From a virus (Duplodnaviria > Caudoviricetes): DNA of 39,237 nt. Within the stretch, counting starts at the first letter, position 1; each line of letters starts with the position of its first letter. Location of the stretch: the IMG/VR virus record IMGVR_UViG_3300032130_000005, positions 1 through 39,237 of that record. One strand, written 5' to 3'. The notes below the pieces were generated by a model that had not been told where the DNA came from, did not search any database, and saw nothing but the letters and a program-made list of their open reading frames with translations. This document shows positions 6,191 through 39,184 of the stretch, one piece after another. The translations under genes were made by a program, and so were the position numbers.

Positions 6191-7216
6191 TTAAGTATAC
6201 TTGTCTAGATTGGATTCGAACTCATGTAGACGCTTCCATATACTGCGAAGCTCTGTAATTGTGGTCCAGTTTTCTAAAAATAATGCAAATCCACCATGAA
6301 CCTTCTGGAAAGCATTTGATACTTGTACAACTACGCCTAATAGTACAGCACCTGTAAATAAACTAGGCCCAACAATTAAGTACGGTACAATTATCATAAA
6401 TTGATCGTAAGTAATACGCCAAGTATCAAAGTACCCATAATGCATATAAAGTCTATGATAATTGAAGCGTATACCAGTGAATAAACTCCATAGTGTTTCC
6501 GGTTGTGCGTAATTGGCTTTATCATCTTCACCTAATACTAAATCTTTTCTAAATGCCGCTTCTACTTTTTGATTATTATATTCTAGTCCCGGAAGTTTCC
6601 AACCAACAAACCATGAAATAACAATACCACCTAATGATACAACTAGAGCAGTCCATACTAATGAACCTGGAATATCGCTAAAGAACGGAATTGTAACTGC
6701 ACTACTTAAAGCCCATAAGACAGGAATAAAAGCTACTAACGTCATTATAGCTCGTACAACTTGTAATCCTAAATTTTCAACAATGCGAGCAAATCTATTA
6801 CAGTCTTCTTGAATACGCTGACTAGCACCTTCTATTTCAGTTTTAACATTACGCCAACGTGGAATATAATTAAATGTTATTGCTTCTCGCCAACGTAATC
6901 CGTATAAACGAGTAAACCATCCTGTAGCAACTGCGAGTATTACATACGGAAATGCCAATACAGCAAACGAGGGTTCGCCTTGTAATCCATTGGTCCAATA
7001 TTCAAAACTAATTAATTTGTCGTAAAATAATGCTGTACCTACGTCAGCTTTATCTTTATATTCACCTGCTGTTTGTAATAAGTTATAGAAGCCACCATAC
7101 CATGTGTTTATGGCTACAGTTATTTGTACTTGTACCCATAAAGAAATAGCAAGTAAAGTGCCACCACCCCAGGCCCACAAAGCCCACTTTCGACTTTTGT
7201 AAAATGCGCCTATCAT
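6191..7216 (-). CDS. sbmA: SbmA/BacA-family inner-membrane peptide transporter
   Basis: VAINTWYGGFYNLLQ, IEGASQRIQED..RF, IMTLVAFIPVL, KLPGLEYNNQKVEAAFRKDLVLGEDD, WTTITELRSIWKRLHEFE all parallel E. coli SbmA motifs. Confidence 0.9.
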   Translation of the reverse strand: MIGAFYKSRKWALWAWGGGTLLAISLWVQVQITVAINTWYGGFYNLLQTAGEYKDKADVGTALFYDKLISFEYWTNGLQGEPSFAVLAFPYVILAVATGWFTRLYGLRWREAITFNYIPRWRNVKTEIEGASQRIQEDCNRFARIVENLGLQVVRAIMTLVAFIPVLWALSSAVTIPFFSDIPGSLVWTALVVSLGGIVISWFVGWKLPGLEYNNQKVEAAFRKDLVLGEDDKANYAQPETLWSLFTGIRFNYHRLYMHYGYFDTWRITYDQFMIIVPYLIVGPSLFTGAVLLGVVVQVSNAFQKVHGGFALFLENWTTITELRSIWKRLHEFESNLDKYT

Positions 7217-8844: not shown

Positions 8845-8851
8845 TATTTAT
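8845..8851 (-). promoter_or_regulatory. T4-type late promoter core (ATAAATA)
   Basis: AATAAATACAT overlapping the protease stop codon, upstream of 8826. Confidence 0.55.
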
Positions 8852-10464
8852 TCCAAAGTACCACTGCCGCTAGTACCAGTCCAACCCCAAGGATTAGGAC
8901 TACTATAAGGCCAATGTAATGTTTTAGCAGGTGCTCCGTAACGTCTTGGAATAGCATTATAGGCATTAAAATCTGTTGCAGTACCGGTATCATAAGCATC
9001 AGTTGTAGCATGAATATTAAGAAAATCTTTGAATTGTTGTGCAGTTCCACCTGGATTCGCTTGTAACCATAATGCACCTATTCCAGTTATTTGTGGTGAC
9101 GCCATTGATGTTCCACCTATTCGCGCCATATAATGTGTAGAACTTCCAGGGTAAAGTTGTTTTGAACCATATGTACTTACTTGACTAGTTGCACTTGAAA
9201 TCTCTTGCCCACCTGCTATTATATCAATACGTGGTCCTCTTTCACTAGATTGTGTGATGAATTCTTGTCCCCCGTATCTATCTTGATCCATATTTGCTAC
9301 CCATACAGTATCATCACTATGCGGTGAACTAGGACGATTATAATATATAGGATTACCTGCCGCGATCCCCTGCCACGATTCATTTAATGTATAATAGCTA
9401 TCATAAATGTCACTATGATAAGGAGCATTAGGACCTGAACATGGATGATATCCATTGCCTGCCGCCTTAACACAAATTACACCTGAATCTGTTAATTGCT
9501 CTTGTTCAACATTACTTGAGAGATCGAACAAGGGATGTCTACTGTTTATTGCTCCGTATTGTGTAAATGTTCCAGAGGTCCATTGTTGAGGAGTAATACT
9601 TTGATCTACTCCTTGAAAAAATATACTTTGTACGGCGGCGTTATTGTTATTATTATAGTACCAACTTTGTCCCCAACTTTGATTTACAATGGTAGGACGT
9701 TTAAATCCGTTAGCTTGAACAGGTTTATTTTCATGCCAAATTCTTATGCAATCCCAAAGGTCATTCGAATTCATTGCCGATGTTCCACCAAATACTCTTA
9801 CAGAATAAATTTTTGCATTCTTGGCCCAACCATATGTTTTACCTGCGGCAATACCTGCTACGTGACTTCCGTGTTCTCCTGCCGGCTGACCGTCATTATA
9901 AGCGTTTGAATAGTGCGTTCCTGGCATTGATCCTGAAATAATCGTATTCCAATCAAACTGTTCAAATCTTGTAGTGCCTTCAGCATCATTCCATTCTGGA
10001 TGTCCTGTAGGATCAACACCATCGTCTTGTATTACAATGTCAACACCTGTACCATCTAATGTATAAGTATAATCTCCTGTGTATGTACTAGATTGTGTTG
10101 CCGCATCGTAGTCACTACGAATATGTCTTTTTAATGCCCAATTAACTGCATCTTGACTGTTAGTAGTTGTTCTATCAAACTGACCAGTCTGTGTTTCATA
10201 TAATTCTCTTGTCTCAGGATCTGGCAGAGTTGATACTGTGTATATTCGTGGGTCTTTTGATAACTCCGCCGCTTCAGCATCAGTTAACATATAATGAGTA
10301 ATTCTGTTATTGGCTTTTTTAGCATACGCTACATCAACAGTTCTAGTTGGAACGTGAGCACTAACAGCCGCATCACTAGTAGTATTTCTTTCTAAGTCAA
10401 CTTCTACTTGTGCAATATCAATGCCTTTTTTAGTAACGACTCTATATTCTTTTTCACCAGCCAT
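8848..10464 (-). CDS. S8 (subtilisin-like) serine protease
   Basis: Catalytic triad IVIQDDG / HGSHVAG / GTSMASP, oxyanion AAGN, N-terminal prodomain-like region. Confidence 0.92.
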   Translation of the reverse strand: MAGEKEYRVVTKKGIDIAQVEVDLERNTTSDAAVSAHVPTRTVDVAYAKKANNRITHYMLTDAEAAELSKDPRIYTVSTLPDPETRELYETQTGQFDRTTTNSQDAVNWALKRHIRSDYDAATQSSTYTGDYTYTLDGTGVDIVIQDDGVDPTGHPEWNDAEGTTRFEQFDWNTIISGSMPGTHYSNAYNDGQPAGEHGSHVAGIAAGKTYGWAKNAKIYSVRVFGGTSAMNSNDLWDCIRIWHENKPVQANGFKRPTIVNQSWGQSWYYNNNNNAAVQSIFFQGVDQSITPQQWTSGTFTQYGAINSRHPLFDLSSNVEQEQLTDSGVICVKAAGNGYHPCSGPNAPYHSDIYDSYYTLNESWQGIAAGNPIYYNRPSSPHSDDTVWVANMDQDRYGGQEFITQSSERGPRIDIIAGGQEISSATSQVSTYGSKQLYPGSSTHYMARIGGTSMASPQITGIGALWLQANPGGTAQQFKDFLNIHATTDAYDTGTATDFNAYNAIPRRYGAPAKTLHWPYSSPNPWGWTGTSGSGTLE

Positions 10465-11978
10465 TAACTTATCCCCGCAGTAGATGTTAAGGCTCTATTA
10501 GCCGCAAATGGAAAATAAGCTATTCTGTTTGGACCATTCTGTAAACTTTGATCATCTGAAAAGAAAGTAGTTGGAGTATTTTCATCTGTTGAACCTTGAA
10601 ACAGTAAACCAGTAACTGCATTGTCTTGCCACCATTTACGTAATTGTGCAGGTGTCCATCCAGGATTTAATTGTAATATTAAACAACTCATGCCAGATAT
10701 CTGCGGTGTAGCCATTGATGTTCCTGTGTTGTTATAACTATCTGTGTCATCGGCAGAACCAGCACTCATAATATTTGTTCCAGCCGCCCATAGGTCAACT
10801 CTAGGTCCTTTATCACTAGTATTTTCTGTTGCTTCAACTGTACCGTTTAAGGCACTATCTAAATTACCTACAACAATTGTTTCAGGTCCGATGTTACCTG
10901 CACCTCTATTATAATGGACAGGATTTCCTGCTGTTATCCCACCTGAAGCTACACTTCGTGTAATATAGTTGTCGTAATCAATGTCTCCGTCATAGCAAAG
11001 TTTTTGACGTTGATTTCCTGCACTTTTAATATAATGTACACCTTCGTCTTGCATTTCTTCAACTTCAACATTTAAGCTCTGTAAATTTGCATTAAATTTA
11101 CCATTGGAGTCCCCAACAGTTCCATACTGGTCTGCCTTAACTGAACCAACACTAGATCCTCTAAACTGAATATCTGTTACACTAGTAAAATATGCTTTAA
11201 ATCCCCAACTTGCTCCTACGACCGTTGGTCGTTTAAAACCAGTAACTGGATCTAAAGTTTTAGCTTTATGAAATTCTTTAATTGCATCAAACCAATATGC
11301 TTGACTAATAATGTTTATAGGTAAACAATATATTCTGGCATTTTTAGCCCAGCCATAATCTTTACCTACAGCCGTTCCACAACAATGAGTTGCATGACTA
11401 CTAGGACTAGATGCGGTATAATCTATAGCAGGAATAGAACCCATATTAGGAAGTGTATTCCATTGGAATTCTTCTAAACGACTAACGCCGTTTTTATCTT
11501 GCCATTGTTCGTGTGTAAATCTAAAGTAATCTTCTTGATGTATATAATCAACGCCGGTACCATCTAAATGATAATCATACGTTGTTCCAGCAGTAAGATC
11601 TTGAGTAACATTAAGTCCCCATAAGTTTGTGTTATTAACTTGTCTTAAAAATCCCCAGTTACCTCTTGCTGTTGAAGTAGAATCTCTAACCCAGTTTTCG
11701 TCTTGTTCGTAGTCTACCCAATCGGATGACCATTCAAGTGGAAGTTCAACACCTCTTACTCTAGAATCATTTGTAAGTTTTTTTGCTTCATCATCTGTAA
11801 GGGATATTTCAAAAATACGTTTACTAGTTGGCCTAGTGTTTACATTTTCAACTGTTCTATCAGGAATGATATTGCTGTCAACACTAGCATCAGCACTTGT
11901 ATCTCGATTAAGGTCGTTAATTATTTGGTCTTTATTAAAGCCCTTGTGTAAAGAAACAACATAATGTTTTTCACTCAT
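10464..11978 (-). CDS. S8 (subtilisin-like) serine protease paralogue with Glu at the triad Asp position
   Basis: HATHCCG, SAGN, GTSMATP; GTGVDYIHQED aligns to GTGVDIVIQDD of the neighbouring protease. Confidence 0.88.
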   Translation of the reverse strand: MSEKHYVVSLHKGFNKDQIINDLNRDTSADASVDSNIIPDRTVENVNTRPTSKRIFEISLTDDEAKKLTNDSRVRGVELPLEWSSDWVDYEQDENWVRDSTSTARGNWGFLRQVNNTNLWGLNVTQDLTAGTTYDYHLDGTGVDYIHQEDYFRFTHEQWQDKNGVSRLEEFQWNTLPNMGSIPAIDYTASSPSSHATHCCGTAVGKDYGWAKNARIYCLPINIISQAYWFDAIKEFHKAKTLDPVTGFKRPTVVGASWGFKAYFTSVTDIQFRGSSVGSVKADQYGTVGDSNGKFNANLQSLNVEVEEMQDEGVHYIKSAGNQRQKLCYDGDIDYDNYITRSVASGGITAGNPVHYNRGAGNIGPETIVVGNLDSALNGTVEATENTSDKGPRVDLWAAGTNIMSAGSADDTDSYNNTGTSMATPQISGMSCLILQLNPGWTPAQLRKWWQDNAVTGLLFQGSTDENTPTTFFSDDQSLQNGPNRIAYFPFAANRALTSTAGIS

Positions 11979-25429: not shown

Positions 25430-25753
25430 TTAAAATCCTACTGATTCACCACACCCGCAACTATTTTTTGTTGCTGGATTAGTAATATCAAAAAATGATC
25501 CAAATAATTCTTCTTTATAATTAATTGTTGAACCCATTAAGTACATTTGACTTAATGAATCAATTGCAAATTTGCCTTTTTCCAAGTTAATTATTTCGTC
25601 TTTATCTTCTACGGCGTCTGACATAGTCCAATCATATGTCATTCCTGCACATCCGCCACCCTTCATAGATAGGCGTACAACAGGTTTATTCTTAGCGGCC
25701 AGCATATAATTCATTTGGTCTATTGCTGATTCTGTTAATGTTACTATTGCCAT
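25430..25753 (-). CDS. iscA: A-type Fe-S cluster carrier (IscA/SufA/ErpA, HesB family); start reassigned to 25753
   Basis: VTLTESA...GGGCAGMTY...NPATKNSCGCGESV with three conserved Cys; AAAGGA RBS before the ATG at 25753. Confidence 0.9.
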   Translation of the reverse strand: MAIVTLTESAIDQMNYMLAAKNKPVVRLSMKGGGCAGMTYDWTMSDAVEDKDEIINLEKGKFAIDSLSQMYLMGSTINYKEELFGSFFDITNPATKNSCGCGESVGF

Positions 25754-25773
25754 ATTAGTTCCTTTGTTAATTG

Positions 25774-25814
25774 TATTTATCAATATGTCTAAAATCCTAA
25801 TGTAATTATAAATA
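25774..25814. promoter_or_regulatory. Divergent pair of late-type promoters
   Basis: GATAAATA on - (25774-25781) towards iscA and the giant fibre; TATAAATA on + (25807-25814) towards 25820. Confidence 0.6.
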
Positions 25815-25819
25815 GCTAT

Positions 25820-26107
25820 ATGTTTATAAGGACAGAACAAACTATACAATACTTTATGCGTAAGGGTATAAAGGGTGAACACCACCCTTATAAACGTAAA
25901 AAAACGTTGGTAGTATTTAAATGTGATAGTTGTAGTGAAGAATTTATACGTGATAAAGGGCGTATAGACCCTAAAAGATTATGTGATGATTATTCGCACG
26001 TTTGCCCGAACTGTGATCCTAAAAGATTTGCCCAAAAACGAGGTGTTGAACAACGTAAAAAATTGAACTTAAGAGTGGATAGCATGATCGACATCACAAA
26101 ACTATGA
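25820..26107 (+). CDS. Small basic Zn-ribbon protein
   Basis: CDSC...CPNC pair, K/R rich. Confidence 0.7.
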   Translation: MFIRTEQTIQYFMRKGIKGEHHPYKRKKTLVVFKCDSCSEEFIRDKGRIDPKRLCDDYSHVCPNCDPKRFAQKRGVEQRKKLNLRVDSMIDITKL

Positions 26108-27704: not shown

Positions 27705-27733
27705 ACTATAGCATTATTTGGATCAATTGTCAA
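27705..27733 (-). promoter_or_regulatory. Sigma70-type promoter
   Basis: TTGACA-17 bp-TATAGT with an extended TGn. Confidence 0.75.
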
Positions 27734-28451: not shown

Positions 28452-28979
28452 TTATAATGCTGGCTTAGAAGGAACTGCTCCAATACTTAATGTAACTCTA
28501 GGGCAAAATGGCATTGATTTGTGTGGAGTTAATCTAGGAAGAAATAATGCATCACCAGTTTTTAAATGCCACATTTTATATTGATCACCTTCTTCAGTTG
28601 ATGTTGGCATACATACTTCACCATATCCTTGTATTAGTAATACAGATTCGTTGTCACGATGCATATAGATTGAGTGATGCCGATCTGAGAAACTCCAAAA
28701 GAAACTGCAATTAATTACTGTTTCAGTTTCAACTGCTGTATAATTAGTAACAAATTCTGTAAAGAAAGGTTTAATATGTTTATTATTTTCTACACTAGCT
28801 AAATGACTACCATACTGATCCATAACAGTATCATTATTGGTAACTCTAGAAACATATTGATTTTGTTGTAGTAATGTTTCAAAATTAATGATTGTTGCTT
28901 CGGGGAACACACCAGGCCAATATTTAACTTCTCTAGTACGTCGAGTTTCGTTTAGTTCTTTCCAAAATTGTTCACGCAT
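28452..28979 (-). CDS. JmjC/cupin-type 2OG-Fe(II) oxygenase
   Basis: HRD..SVLLIQGYG...GDALFLP..TPH...RVTLSIG (HxD...H). Confidence 0.75.
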   Translation of the reverse strand: MREQFWKELNETRRTREVKYWPGVFPEATIINFETLLQQNQYVSRVTNNDTVMDQYGSHLASVENNKHIKPFFTEFVTNYTAVETETVINCSFFWSFSDRHHSIYMHRDNESVLLIQGYGEVCMPTSTEEGDQYKMWHLKTGDALFLPRLTPHKSMPFCPRVTLSIGAVPSKPAL

Positions 28980-29423
28980 TTAATTTTCCACTATTGCACT
29001 ATTACTACCATGCTCAAACACTTCAACACTAGCAAGTCTTACACGACCTCCTGTGTCTTCATCTATAATTGGTGCTACATAATTATAAACGTGTTCTGCA
29101 AATTTTTCACAACCTACGCCATCCATTTGAATAACTTTAGCAAGACCTTTTTCTTCTAATGCTATAAAGTCGTTTAGATTAGGATCATTTTTATCAACAG
29201 CTAGTTTATGATCAAAATTATCTTCTAGATATTGTTTAATCCATTTACAATTGCCAAAATCATAAACCCAATTTTTATCATCTAGTTCGAATGCTTCAAA
29301 CTCAAATCGAAATCCTAAACTGTATCCATGAATTAATGAACAATGACTGTCTGCCAATGCTTGTCTAAACGCACAACTGAATCCTCTTTCGTTACCGTAT
29401 GTTTTTGTACTTTTATGTTTCAT
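28980..29423 (-). CDS. queD: 6-carboxy-tetrahydropterin synthase (QueD/PTPS family); start reassigned to ATG 29423
   Basis: SCAFRQ...HCSLIHGY...LDDKNWVYDFG...FDH...GCEKFAE...VEVFEHGSNSA; AAGGAG RBS. Confidence 0.85.
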   Translation of the reverse strand: MKHKSTKTYGNERGFSCAFRQALADSHCSLIHGYSLGFRFEFEAFELDDKNWVYDFGNCKWIKQYLEDNFDHKLAVDKNDPNLNDFIALEEKGLAKVIQMDGVGCEKFAEHVYNYVAPIIDEDTGGRVRLASVEVFEHGSNSAIVEN

Positions 29424-29481
29424 ATTTTCTCCTTTTAAACGGCGGAGTATTTTAAGAGGGTCGACGTAATAGTCCTCATTT
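29424..29481 (-). ncRNA. Candidate preQ1-I-like riboswitch / structured 5' leader of queD
   Basis: GAGG-ACUAUUACGUCGAC-CCUC-UUAAAAUAC-UCCGCCGUUUAA-AAGGAG: stem P1, A-rich tail and possible loop-tail pseudoknot, lying between the promoter and the SD. Confidence 0.5.
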
Positions 29482-29486
29482 GTAAT

Positions 29487-29515
29487 AGTATATAACAATT
29501 TTGTTTAGTTGTCAA
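29487..29515 (-). promoter_or_regulatory. Sigma70-type promoter for queD
   Basis: TTGACA(29515-29510)-17 bp-TATACT(29492-29487). Confidence 0.8.
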
Positions 29516-30152
29516 CCGGAATGTGATGTGTATTGAAACTAATTGTTAGCCGTTTATTGGTTTTATTATATAAACTTCTATGATATAACCAACTAGGAAA
29601 TAAAACGAGCATACCCGATCTTGGATGGAACTCCATTTTATCAGAAGTAAATTCAGTTGCGTTATTATGTATCTCTGCCATTTTTGGTCCTAGTATTGGA
29701 CTTGTAAAAACTATTGGAGCACTATCTTCTTCGCAATAAGGATAGTATGCTCCACTTACAATACTTAATTCATGTCTGTGTTCATTTACGTGTCCATCTT
29801 CTTCTTGAATATTAAACCAGCTTTTGGCAATAGTAGCTGGTTCTAATCCACACGTAACACAAAATTCGTCTACACAATTTTGAATGTCTTGTTTTAGTAT
29901 TTTAAATTCTGCACGATCTAAGAAGTTTGCTGTTTTATGAGTTTTACTAATAACATCAAAATATCTACTACTAGTTTTACCTTTGCCTACGTCAGCTGGC
30001 CATGACATTAGTATTTCTTGTGTAAAACTATTAATAGTATCAACAACTAGTTTTTGATCAGCATGATTCTCTAAATTCCATACTTGAACTAACGTTGGAA
30101 ATAATGAATAATCTGCTTTACGAAATTGTCCTTCAGGTATTGTCGCCTTCAT
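29505..30152 (-). CDS. Putative 2OG-Fe(II) oxygenase (TIGR02466-like)
   Basis: LFPT, SWFN, HRH, SGAYY, GMLVLFPSWLYH, RLTISFN. Confidence 0.85.
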   Translation of the reverse strand: MKATIPEGQFRKADYSLFPTLVQVWNLENHADQKLVVDTINSFTQEILMSWPADVGKGKTSSRYFDVISKTHKTANFLDRAEFKILKQDIQNCVDEFCVTCGLEPATIAKSWFNIQEEDGHVNEHRHELSIVSGAYYPYCEEDSAPIVFTSPILGPKMAEIHNNATEFTSDKMEFHPRSGMLVLFPSWLYHRSLYNKTNKRLTISFNTHHIPVDN

Positions 30153-30804
30153 GCTTTTCCATTCTATAATCTTTTACTGTTCGCATATAGCCCCTATCAG
30201 CGTTTCGAATTGTATTGAAACTTATTACATATCTTTTCTTAGGCTCTCGATACAATCGCAGAACAGGTTTTGGTTCAACGTAATGTTTTATCCAACTAGG
30301 AAATAGTACTAATAATCCAGTACGTGCTTGTATATCTAAATTATACTTACTGTAATATGTGTCTTTTATAATACAATCGTTCATACGTAATTGTTGTATT
30401 GGACTTTCAAGCATTAAAGGACTACTTCCTTCGTCAGCATACGGATAGTATGCTCCACTAATAACACTTCGTTCATGTCTATGAGCTTCAACTGAATTAC
30501 CTTCAGACATTGTATTAAACCAACTTGTTGAAATAAGGGTATAATCAATTCCTGCTTCTTCAGTATATGTGTCACAACATGATTGTATTGTTTTCCATAA
30601 GTCTACTAATCGCTTATCACTTAAAAATTGTTCGTTGCCGGTTATGTAACTACTATGTCCACCTTTTACTAATCTATGCTCGCCAATATCTTGCCAGTTC
30701 TCAATCATATCTATAGCAACTTCTTCACAAGGGTGTCCTTTAAGATCCCATGTGCTTATTAATGTTGGAAATGTTGCGAAATGTTTAGGTTCAGGTGGTC
30801 TCAT
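30133..30804 (-). CDS. Putative 2OG-Fe(II) oxygenase (TIGR02466-like), tandem paralogue; ATG 30804 preferred over TTG 30822
   Basis: TFPT, SWFN, HRH, SGAYY, GLLVLFPSWIKHYV, RYVISFN. Confidence 0.85.
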   Translation of the reverse strand: MRPPEPKHFATFPTLISTWDLKGHPCEEVAIDMIENWQDIGEHRLVKGGHSSYITGNEQFLSDKRLVDLWKTIQSCCDTYTEEAGIDYTLISTSWFNTMSEGNSVEAHRHERSVISGAYYPYADEGSSPLMLESPIQQLRMNDCIIKDTYYSKYNLDIQARTGLLVLFPSWIKHYVEPKPVLRLYREPKKRYVISFNTIRNADRGYMRTVKDYRMEKHEGDNT

Positions 30805-31375
30805 TATCAATCCCAAATTCAATTACCATTTTGTTACATACATTTTTTTGCTCTGTTGGCCATGGCTTATTATTATAATAAGTAAAATTAGCTTCAGGAA
30901 AATTTTCAAACACTTTATCAATTTGATATATCCAATAACTAGGATCTACTGGACTTGAATCTGCATCGTTATAATTCTCTGTGCCTTTATATATGTTATT
31001 ATAAAGTCCGGTATCTAAATCAAACCCAATCATATGTATTTCAGGTTTTTCACTCCATTTAGAAGCTATTATTGTTCCTAATAATACTGCATAAGGTCCA
31101 CTACCCCAATGCCATGGATCGTCAAGTTTTGTATTACCTTTATATGGAAGTTGTGGAACTAGCCCACATAATTTAAATTGATCTATCCAATCGGGTCTAG
31201 TATAGATAGCACCATAGTTACGTTCTTTTTGTGCTTCAGTAACCATACGACGATCACAACAAATTAAGTGGTTTATATAAAAGTCTCTAAAAATTGCGTT
31301 GCAACCAACCTTTATATCGCCACATTTATTGATATCTATATCTTTTCTACTCTCTCCGTTGCCAATCACAAGCAT
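30791..31375 (-). CDS. DUF115/MptE-/Maf-like Rossmann-type transferase
   Basis: LVIGNGESR, GCNA..RD, LICCD, SGPYA, IHMIGFD. Confidence 0.6.
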   Translation of the reverse strand: MLVIGNGESRKDIDINKCGDIKVGCNAIFRDFYINHLICCDRRMVTEAQKERNYGAIYTRPDWIDQFKLCGLVPQLPYKGNTKLDDPWHWGSGPYAVLLGTIIASKWSEKPEIHMIGFDLDTGLYNNIYKGTENYNDADSSPVDPSYWIYQIDKVFENFPEANFTYYNNKPWPTEQKNVCNKMVIEFGIDNETT

Positions 31376-39155: not shown

Positions 39156-39184
39156 AGTATAACATCCTAGCACCAATTTGTCAA
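39156..39184 (-). promoter_or_regulatory. Sigma70-type early promoter for the ligase
   Basis: TTGACA-17 bp-TATACT with an extended TGn. Confidence 0.8.

What the first reader, a model, noticed from the sequence alone, without database searches (positions are those of the whole stretch)
29423..29515. Phage queD preceded by a preQ1-I-riboswitch-like leader
Seen: a near-consensus sigma70 promoter (TTGACA-17-TATACT) should start a leader of about 57 nt, AAUGAGGACUAUUACGUCGACCCUCUUAAAAUACUCCGCCGUUUAAAAGGAGAAAAU-AUG. It has a GAGG/CCUC stem, a loop ending in AC and an A-rich tail. Loop ACGUCG can pair with downstream CGCCGU at 5 of 6 positions, which would give an H-type pseudoknot. CUCC or CUCUU could alternatively sequester the GGAG SD. 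Known: the B. subtilis queC preQ1-I aptamer has the layout AGAGG-loop..AC-CCUCU-AUAAAAAAC, and QueD is on the preQ0/preQ1 pathway. Inference: a divergent, phage-borne deazaguanine-sensing switch giving feedback control of precursor supply. The first loop base is A rather than the conserved U, so the ligand may differ (preQ0, CDG or a pterin). The stem is only 4 bp.
Basis: partly seen in the sequence, partly recalled or inferred. Interest (0 to 1): 0.82.

Follow-up and report, generated by a model that had tools for sequence, protein, structure and literature searches.

The report
Phage queD-leader pseudoknot, paired riboswitch candidate
The short leader of this marine phage's queD gene holds a small RNA pseudoknot that hundreds of uncultured phage sequences keep through compensating base changes; it matches no Rfam family and is likely a new riboswitch that would switch the enzyme on, possibly paired with a sister element predicted to switch off the preceding enzyme FolE, but no ligand binding has been tested.

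Summary
Promoter, GAGG/CCUC stem, loop-tail pairing with a U·C mismatch, and SD are at the stated places. The element is a conserved H-type pseudoknot found in hundreds of IMG/VR and metagenome stretches, practically always before a QueD/PTPS gene. P2 covaries strongly even where the search pattern fixed none of it (R-Y pair 76/76). It is not a preQ1-I member: no Rfam hit, the L1 uridine is mostly A, and the SD lies outside P2. Feedback by preQ1/preQ0 is unlikely: 0 of 14 carrier records encode QueC, while 10 carry DpdL-like and 8 DpdA3-like genes (predicted 7-deazaguanine DNA). Wiring points to translation ON, with only moderate support; the window's own anti-SD barely beats shuffles. A sister mini-pseudoknot whose loop can pair with the SD precedes folE in 11 of 23 carrier records. 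OFF on FolE plus ON on QueD would fit one ligand, their shared intermediate dihydroneopterin triphosphate (inference). This scan found both motifs before on other DNA, separately. Ligand binding is untested.

The parts
29510..29515 (-). sigma70-type -35 box TTGACA, inside the last codons of the upstream 2OG-Fe(II) oxygenase gene
   Evidence: TTGAC within 60 nt upstream of P1 in 79 of 115 homologous leaders
29487..29492 (-). -10 box TATACT; transcription start predicted near 29481-29480 (not mapped)
29474..29477 (-). P1 5' strand GAGG
   Evidence: A-U to U-A change in 6 of 80 rows; 5 parsimony steps on each side and as a pair
29468..29473 (-). loop L1: conserved (A/U)CU followed by a variable 1-7 nt spacer
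   Evidence: ACU 103, UCU 12 of 115
29462..29467 (-). P2 5' strand ACG-UCG (variable covarying P2a, then conserved UCR)
29460..29461 (-). loop L2 AC; C29460 is the candidate specificity base
   Evidence: C in 81 of 81 when left free in the pattern
29456..29459 (-). P1 3' strand CCUC
29445..29455 (-). loop L3, consensus three variable nt, AAA-N-A, YUC
29439..29444 (-). P2 3' strand CGC-CGU
29444..29447 (-). predicted anti-SD CUCC, overlapping the end of L3 and the first base of P2 3'
29429..29432 (-). Shine-Dalgarno core GGAG
28980..29423 (-). QueD/PTPS-family gene, 147 aa, motif CxxxHGY
28452..28979 (-). JmjC/cupin-like gene starting right after the queD stop; possibly co-transcribed
   Evidence: one contig of an RNA library spans 28508-29314, which does not prove one transcript

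Best explanation
The leader is a conserved H-type RNA pseudoknot in front of phage queD that likely acts as a metabolite-binding riboswitch and is predicted to turn translation on when it binds a guanine-faced intermediate of the phage's 7-deazaguanine pathway, most likely dihydroneopterin triphosphate (H2NTP) or its dephosphorylated form. Shown: the two helices, their covariation, the invariant unpaired bases, and the tie to QueD/PTPS genes. Predicted by folding: without ligand, P1 forms and the CUCC at the L3/P2 border pairs with the GGAG SD; in other members the P2 3' strand pairs with the SD or the AUG instead. Inferred: ligand is read by the invariant C before P1 3' on a G-C floor, as in preQ1-I, which locks the weak P2 and L3 and frees the ribosome site. 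Inferred: a smaller sister pseudoknot with the same core features pairs its loop with the SD of folE in the same phages. One ligand lying between FolE and QueD would then throttle its own synthesis and speed its removal. My odds: real cis-acting structure 0.97; small-molecule riboswitch about 0.7; ON if riboswitch about 0.7; H2NTP/dihydroneopterin if ON about 0.5.
For: Covariation: 96.1% of cells paired, score 0.563 against 0.157 in shuffles and at most 0.155 in slid controls, 80 sequences. In the scan whose pattern fixed no P2 base, 76 of 92 distinct matches precede PTPS, and these show UCR 76/76, YUCYG 76/76, R-Y paired 76/76 (38 A-U, 38 G-C), and P2a paired 70, 75 and 74 of 76; the 16 others show UCR 3/16 and YUCYG 1/16. 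On a protein tree the R-Y pair changes 13 times on each side and 13 times as a pair. Invariant unpaired bases, as expected of a pocket: C 81/81, AAA-N-A 80/81, U.C 114/115 (both bases fixed in some patterns). Gene link: 92 of 98 distinct metagenome matches lie directly before PTPS and the other six are truncated, fused or interrupted PTPS loci; downstream proteins go down to 25% identity with the window's, which argues against recognition by the encoded protein. ON wiring: mean SD unpaired 0.40 free, 0.78 with the aptamer locked, 115 leaders; window 0.25 to 0.99; native aptamer 3' ends pair with their own platform better than swapped ends in 38 of 45. Pathway: the relative G001 (86% identical QueD) encodes FolE, a radical-SAM gene I label QueE-like, a protein 53% identical to ACP17 DpdL and one 35% identical to PA5oct DpdA3; DpdL-like in 10 of 14, DpdA3-like in 8 of 14 (G001 included), QueC 0 of 14. 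Sister motif: 98 of 108 distinct matches precede FolE, three P1 pairs 98/98 with the stem left free; present in 6 of 14 and 5 of 9 queD-motif records, reversed control 0. Precedent: THF-II riboswitches before folE bind dihydroneopterin (PMC6800512, passages).
Against: No binding or expression data. Locking any upstream stretch frees the SD trivially: for the window the opening cost is 3.9 kcal/mol free, 0.2 locked, but still 3.1 with the aptamer 3' end shuffled; native beats shuffled in 34 of 45 long-type and only 20 of 45 short-type leaders (also -4.6 against -4.4). In the short type the SD is mostly open even when free (0.74 against 0.84). The Y of YUC is what pairing to an SD G would allow, so a ligand-bound kissing form that keeps the SD paired is not excluded for window-type leaders. 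P2a columns were not told apart from non-partner columns by the parsimony test. The loop-SD pairing of the folE motif was fixed in its pattern, so its OFF reading rests on complementarity only. The two complete carrier records lack the folE mini motif by exact pattern. The window is an 11% fragment and holds none of folE, queE, dpdL or dpdA; pathway content comes from relatives, most of them incomplete. DpdL's activity is itself only predicted (PMC10516641). 18 of 33 protein-found homologues with upstream DNA, all 46-66% identical, have no motif, so it is dispensable in other lineages.
Confidence: 0.5

Rival explanations
1. A riboswitch with the same fold but another guanine-faced ligand: free guanine (released when the DpdA transglycosylase swaps bases in DNA) or GTP turning queD on, or CDG/7-deazaguanine acting through a kissing form that keeps the SD paired (OFF).
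For: A specificity C reads any guanine-like face (PMC11625349 section 8). DpdA-like genes and a phosphoribosyltransferase are present in carriers. YUC can pair with GAG of the SD with either C or U.
Against: Guanine or GTP would not explain an SD-pairing sister motif on folE, whose substrate is GTP. The fully covarying R-Y pair uses the last base of the CUCC anti-SD, and many members place the anti-SD or anti-AUG in the P2 3' strand itself, which cannot coexist with P2.
Confidence: 0.22
2. A protein-binding operator: a phage or host protein (QueD, FolE, DpdL or ribosomal protein S1) binds the pseudoknot and sets queD translation, as T4 gp32 does on its own leader (recalled).
For: Near restriction to phages (1 hit in 185,579 prokaryote genomes, on a phage-like contig); riboswitches are rare in phages (PMC5473149 passage); conserved loops also suit a protein site.
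Against: The motif precedes PTPS subfamilies as little as 25% identical; conserved bases sit where a preQ1-I pocket sits; at least four different expression platforms are attached to one core.
Confidence: 0.13
3. A divergent preQ1-I riboswitch that senses preQ1 or preQ0 and shuts queD off.
For: Same topology, G-C floor, C before P1 3', A-rich L3; QueD lies on the preQ0 route; the host could supply preQ1.
Against: No Rfam preQ1-I match even at E up to 10; L1 uridine replaced by A in 103 of 115; SD outside P2; no terminator-like site near the leader; QueC absent from 14 of 14 carrier records, two of them complete.
Confidence: 0.07
4. A ligand-independent structure, such as a 5' stabiliser, a translation enhancer or a folding timer.
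For: It begins a few bases after the predicted start; the short type leaves the SD largely open.
Against: Confinement to one enzyme family across unrelated gene neighbourhoods and invariant unpaired bases; P2 alone is marginal in the window (about -1 to -2 kcal/mol), as if it needed a partner.
Confidence: 0.08

Closest known systems
preQ1-I riboswitch, types I-III (Rfam RF00522, accession as given in earlier scan notes; PMC11625349, PMC10622847)
   Same: Small H-type pseudoknot; G-C closing pair of P1; C directly before P1 3' (AC or UC, as in types II/III and I); A-rich L3; sits in the leader of a gene of the 7-deazaguanine route.
   Different: No Rfam match; L1 starts with A in most members instead of the conserved U/UU; P2 is long (5-8 pairs), covarying, with an invariant U.C; L3 ends in YUC; SD is outside P2 and the wiring looks ON; found in phages that lack QueC.
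THF-II riboswitch (folE motif; PMC6800512)
   Same: Leader element on the FolE branch; binds reduced pterins including dihydroneopterin, the ligand class proposed here.
   Different: Two-helix hairpin with the RBS in P1, OFF, in Rhizobiales; no Rfam match to either phage motif.
preQ1-II riboswitch (Rfam RF01054)
   Same: Only Rfam model to ring at all (19.5 bits, E 0.72).
   Different: Far below the 47-bit cut-off; the match rests on the -10 box and the SD/AUG end, not on the core.
7-deazaguanine (dDG) DNA modification of Cellulophaga phage phiST and gene sets of ACP17 and PA5oct (PMC10516641)
   Same: FolE, QueD, QueE, DpdL and DpdA without QueC, as in carrier relatives such as G001.
   Different: The cultured phages checked (PA5oct, Paride, Phosso, BUCT-ZZ01 whole; regions of ACP17 and four others) carry no leader motif.
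DNAVirus_406 (Fremin et al. 2023, PMC10690425, supplementary tables)
   Same: A 66-nt candidate from 39 aquatic viral sequences within 25 bp of folE; may be the sister folE motif.
   Different: Its sequence could not be read; no candidate is listed before PTPS/QueD in the tables searched.

Membership tests
preQ1-I riboswitch | Scores against the Rfam model | tested here: not met
   No match at gathering score in the window, none for preQ1-I at E up to 10 in 29300-29600, none in 8 homologous loci at E up to 5
preQ1-I riboswitch | H-type pseudoknot with A-rich L3 | tested here: met
preQ1-I riboswitch | Cytosine specificity base just before P1 3' | tested here: met
   81 of 81 when left free; feature from PMC11625349 section 8
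preQ1-I riboswitch | G-C pocket floor closing P1 | tested here: met
   80 of 80 in A1, though fixed in most patterns; also in the 15 motif loci found by protein alone
preQ1-I riboswitch | Conserved U6 (UU in types I and III) in L1 reading the ligand's N9 edge | tested here: not met
   A in 103 of 115, U in 12, always followed by CU; A in the window
preQ1-I riboswitch | L3 adenine next to P2 reading N2/N3 | tested here: inconclusive
   L3 holds AAA-N-A but ends in YUC; register cannot be fixed without a structure
preQ1-I riboswitch | OFF control through SD in P2 or a terminator | tested here: not met
   SD 3-26 nt beyond P2 in 115 leaders; no terminator-like site near the window's leader
preQ1-I riboswitch | Binds preQ1 | not testable with these tools
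   needs in-line probing or ITC
preQ1-II riboswitch | Rfam score of 47 bits and four-helix HLout fold | tested here: not met
   19.5 bits from flanks only; two helices
THF-II riboswitch | Hairpin with RBS in P1 before folE; Rfam match | tested here: not met
QueD (CPH4 synthase) | PTPS fold family | tested here: met
   PF01242 64.6 bits over cut-off 22.4; PDB 7v0f at E 2e-5
QueD (CPH4 synthase) | Signature CxxxHGH and TIGR03367 cut-off | tested here: inconclusive
   Has CxxxHGY; 39 bits under cut-off 89. The same HGY occurs in the ACP17 gene that, by gene order, is the QueD of PMC10516641 table DS1, and in the Motura gene beside queC
DpdL (QueD paralogue) | LxxxHRHxF motif | tested here: not met
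   absent from P0001; present in the separate G001 protein

The most novel reading that the evidence does not exclude
A new, essentially phage-borne riboswitch class for dihydroneopterin triphosphate that comes as a pair: a ~25-nt version shuts folE off and a ~40-nt version turns queD on, so that jumbo aquatic phages meter GTP into 7-deazaguanine DNA modification with one metabolite and two RNAs of opposite logic.
Probability: 0.25. Interest if true: 0.9.

Novelty: new variant of a known kind. Interest (0 to 1): 0.72.

Why it matters
Riboswitches are reported to be rare in phages (PMC5473149; PMC9004378), yet this motif is estimated at several hundred IMG/VR stretches and its folE sister at about 2000. 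A validated ligand would add a riboswitch class, show how phages regulate the supply chain for anti-restriction DNA modification, and show how the preQ1-I scaffold changes ligand and polarity. Both RNAs are under 60 nt, and the candidate ligands can be listed, so the question is directly testable.

Tried and rejected
Rfam at gathering and E-value thresholds: nothing meaningful. Single-sequence folding: not significant. One search used a structure string with wrong columns; one search is the correct count. Cultured phages: blastn with two leader variants and with the folE motif, and model R1 on four whole genomes (best E 0.138) and on regions of ACP17, RHph_I1_18, 2.275.O, D479, Motura and PA5oct found no instance; R1 also missed the short type in G008, so these blanks are weak. 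GTDB: one exact long-type pattern only, one hit on a phage-like contig in a MAG; short-type and variant patterns were not scanned there. RNA libraries: contigs of four runs cover parts of queD and the next gene, one reaches 29445, none covers the aptamer; they give no strand, start or level. Parsimony on P2a columns did not separate partners from non-partners. No covariation was seen between the Y of YUC and the SD. Pfam TGT found nothing in 5 records, but it also misses the DpdA3-like protein. Rows dropped: of 146 motif strings, 17 lacked a downstream PTPS signature (2 truncated, the rest lacking the core) and L180 was removed as a false positive, leaving 115 distinct cores; alignment A1 used 80 of these 115; swap and opening tests used 45 of 115 long-type and 45 of 58 short-type leaders. 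McCown 2014 is not held.

Full report
Observation. The window is a 39-kb linear virus record estimated 11% complete, held at 97-100% of words by many marine metagenomes. On the minus strand a TTGACA-17-TATACT promoter precedes a 57-nt leader and a 147-aa PTPS/QueD-family gene. Alone, the leader is not unusually stable (z -0.68), and Rfam has nothing at gathering score; the only weak match is preQ1-II at 19.5 bits, carried by the -10 box and SD.

Conservation. Of 33 protein-found homologues with upstream DNA, all 14 at 77% identity or more carry the motif, as does one at 40%; 18 at 46-66% do not. Pattern scans of IMG/VR gave 114 matches with a strict pattern, the 62 distinct ones all before PTPS-type ORFs by my reading of the listing, and estimates of about 410 and 700 stretches with looser patterns. 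JGI metagenomes gave about 570. Of 98 distinct metagenome matches, 92 lie directly before PTPS; four are truncated, one precedes a PTPS with an N-terminal extension and one has two genes inserted before PTPS. GTDB gave one hit, on a contig with this phage's gene order inside a MAG. No cultured phage checked has it.

Structure. The consensus is P1 GAGG/CCUC, L1 (A/U)CU plus 1-7 nt, P2 made of a variable P2a, an invariant U.C, a C-G and an R-Y pair, L2 N-C, and L3 of three variable nt, AAA-N-A, YUC. On 80 sequences 96.1% of cells pair and the covariation score is 0.563 against 0.157 in shuffles. In the scan that fixed no P2 base, UCR and YUCYG appear in 76 of 76 PTPS-linked matches, R-Y pairs in 76 of 76 (38 A-U, 38 G-C), and P2a pairs in 70, 75 and 74 of 76. 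On a protein tree R-Y changes 13 times, always on both sides together, and P1 position 2 five times; the same test did not discriminate P2a partners from non-partners. With the candidate specificity C and L3 left free, C is present in 81 of 81 and AAA-N-A in 80 of 81. A short type with a 3-bp P1 and 8-nt L3 exists (about 150 stretches; 67 of 69 distinct matches scored as before PTPS).

Polarity. The SD lies 3-26 nt beyond P2, so the preQ1-I OFF mechanism does not apply. In the window the predicted free fold is P1 plus a CUCC/GGAG hairpin. Across 115 leaders the SD goes from 0.40 to 0.78 unpaired when the aptamer is locked, and several different platforms use the P2 3' strand or L3 end to pair with the SD or AUG. 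Controls temper this: native beats swapped ends in 38 of 45 and shuffled ends in 35 of 45; opening cost beats shuffled in 34 of 45 long-type but 20 of 45 short-type leaders, and in the window it is 3.9 against 3.1 kcal/mol. ON is the best reading, not a proven one. I saw the ON wording in earlier scan notes before running these tests.

Pathway. The window holds no other pathway gene. The relative G001 encodes FolE, a radical-SAM gene beside it that I label QueE-like (weak Pfam support), a protein 53% identical to ACP17 DpdL and one 35% identical to PA5oct QCG76197, listed as DpdA3 in table DS1 of PMC10516641. Among 14 carrier records, DpdL-like genes occur in 10 (both complete ones), DpdA3-like in 8, and QueC in none over cut-off; complete G003 has a DpdA2-like gene instead. 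By PMC10516641 (passages) this set points to CDG and 7-deazaguanine, not preQ0 or preQ1.

Sister element. Before folE in the same clade sits a mini pseudoknot: a 3-4 bp stem, loop AUCCWC, tail AAC(A)UC, then the SD. With the stem free, 98 of 108 distinct matches precede FolE and three pairs hold in 98 of 98 with several pair types. It shares with the queD motif an L1 starting with A, a P2 5' strand starting UC, L2 N-C and an L3 ending UC, but its loop is complementary to the SD; that pairing was fixed in the pattern and so not tested for covariation. It occurs in 6 of 14 long-type and 5 of 9 short-type carrier records, mostly fragments, and in neither complete record. The one metabolite that should lower FolE and raise QueD is H2NTP, product of the first and substrate of the second. 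This is inference; reduced-pterin sensing before folE has a precedent in THF-II (PMC6800512, passages).

Comparison and literature. Against the definers in PMC11625349 (section 8 part 1 and passages) and PMC10622847 (first part and passages), the RNA meets topology, floor and specificity C, and fails the L1 uridine, the OFF platform and the Rfam score. It works like a class I preQ1 scaffold but is not a member. Ten full-text searches, seen as listings, showed no paper describing it; most subscription papers are not held. In PMC10690425 I searched the main text and readable supplements: no candidate before PTPS/QueD, one before folE; its alignment archives were unreadable and may contain either motif. 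PMC5473149 and PMC9004378 (passages) call phage riboswitches rare. PMC4342423 (passages) was irrelevant.

Scan history and verdict. Earlier notes report the queD motif on at least nine other genomes and the folE motif on others, each separately; these are not independent support. Verdict: real feature, new variant of a known kind, interest 0.72; paired H2NTP model probability 0.25, interest 0.9 if true.

Noticed in passing
L649 (G001:C1:109161-109182) and loci L729-L848: Mini pseudoknot before phage folE: covarying 3-4 bp stem, loop complementary to the SD; about 2000 IMG/VR stretches estimated.
   Followed up: partly
L849:1384-1417 and loci L850-L969: Short type of the queD motif with 3-bp P1 and 8-nt L3, close in size to the folE motif; missed by model R1.
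   Followed up: partly
L546:444-1540: Two unrelated secreted-looking genes lie between a queD motif with a damaged P2 3' strand and the PTPS gene.
   Followed up: partly
L595:370-1113: PTPS with an N-terminal extension of about 95 aa behind an intact motif.
   Followed up: no
L391:8555-8635 (G003): The folE leader of complete record G003 lacks the mini motif but has a loop-like AUCC complementary to its SD region; possibly another folE element.
   Followed up: no
L389: Contig filed in a Crocinitomicaceae MAG has this phage's gene order and the motif; probably a binned phage contig, not a host link.
   Followed up: partly
window 39156-39184 and 27705-27733 (minus): Two more 11-of-12 sigma70 promoters, before the DNA ligase and the glucosaminidase genes.
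   Followed up: no
window 6191-7216, 8848-11978, 25430-25885, 29505-30822: Phage-borne SbmA/BacA transporter, two subtilases, an IscA-type Fe-S protein and two TIGR02466-like 2OG-Fe(II) oxygenases.
   Followed up: no
L400:5140-5206 and L410:2934-3000: PA5oct and Motura queD genes are preceded by plain hairpins unrelated to the motif.
   Followed up: no
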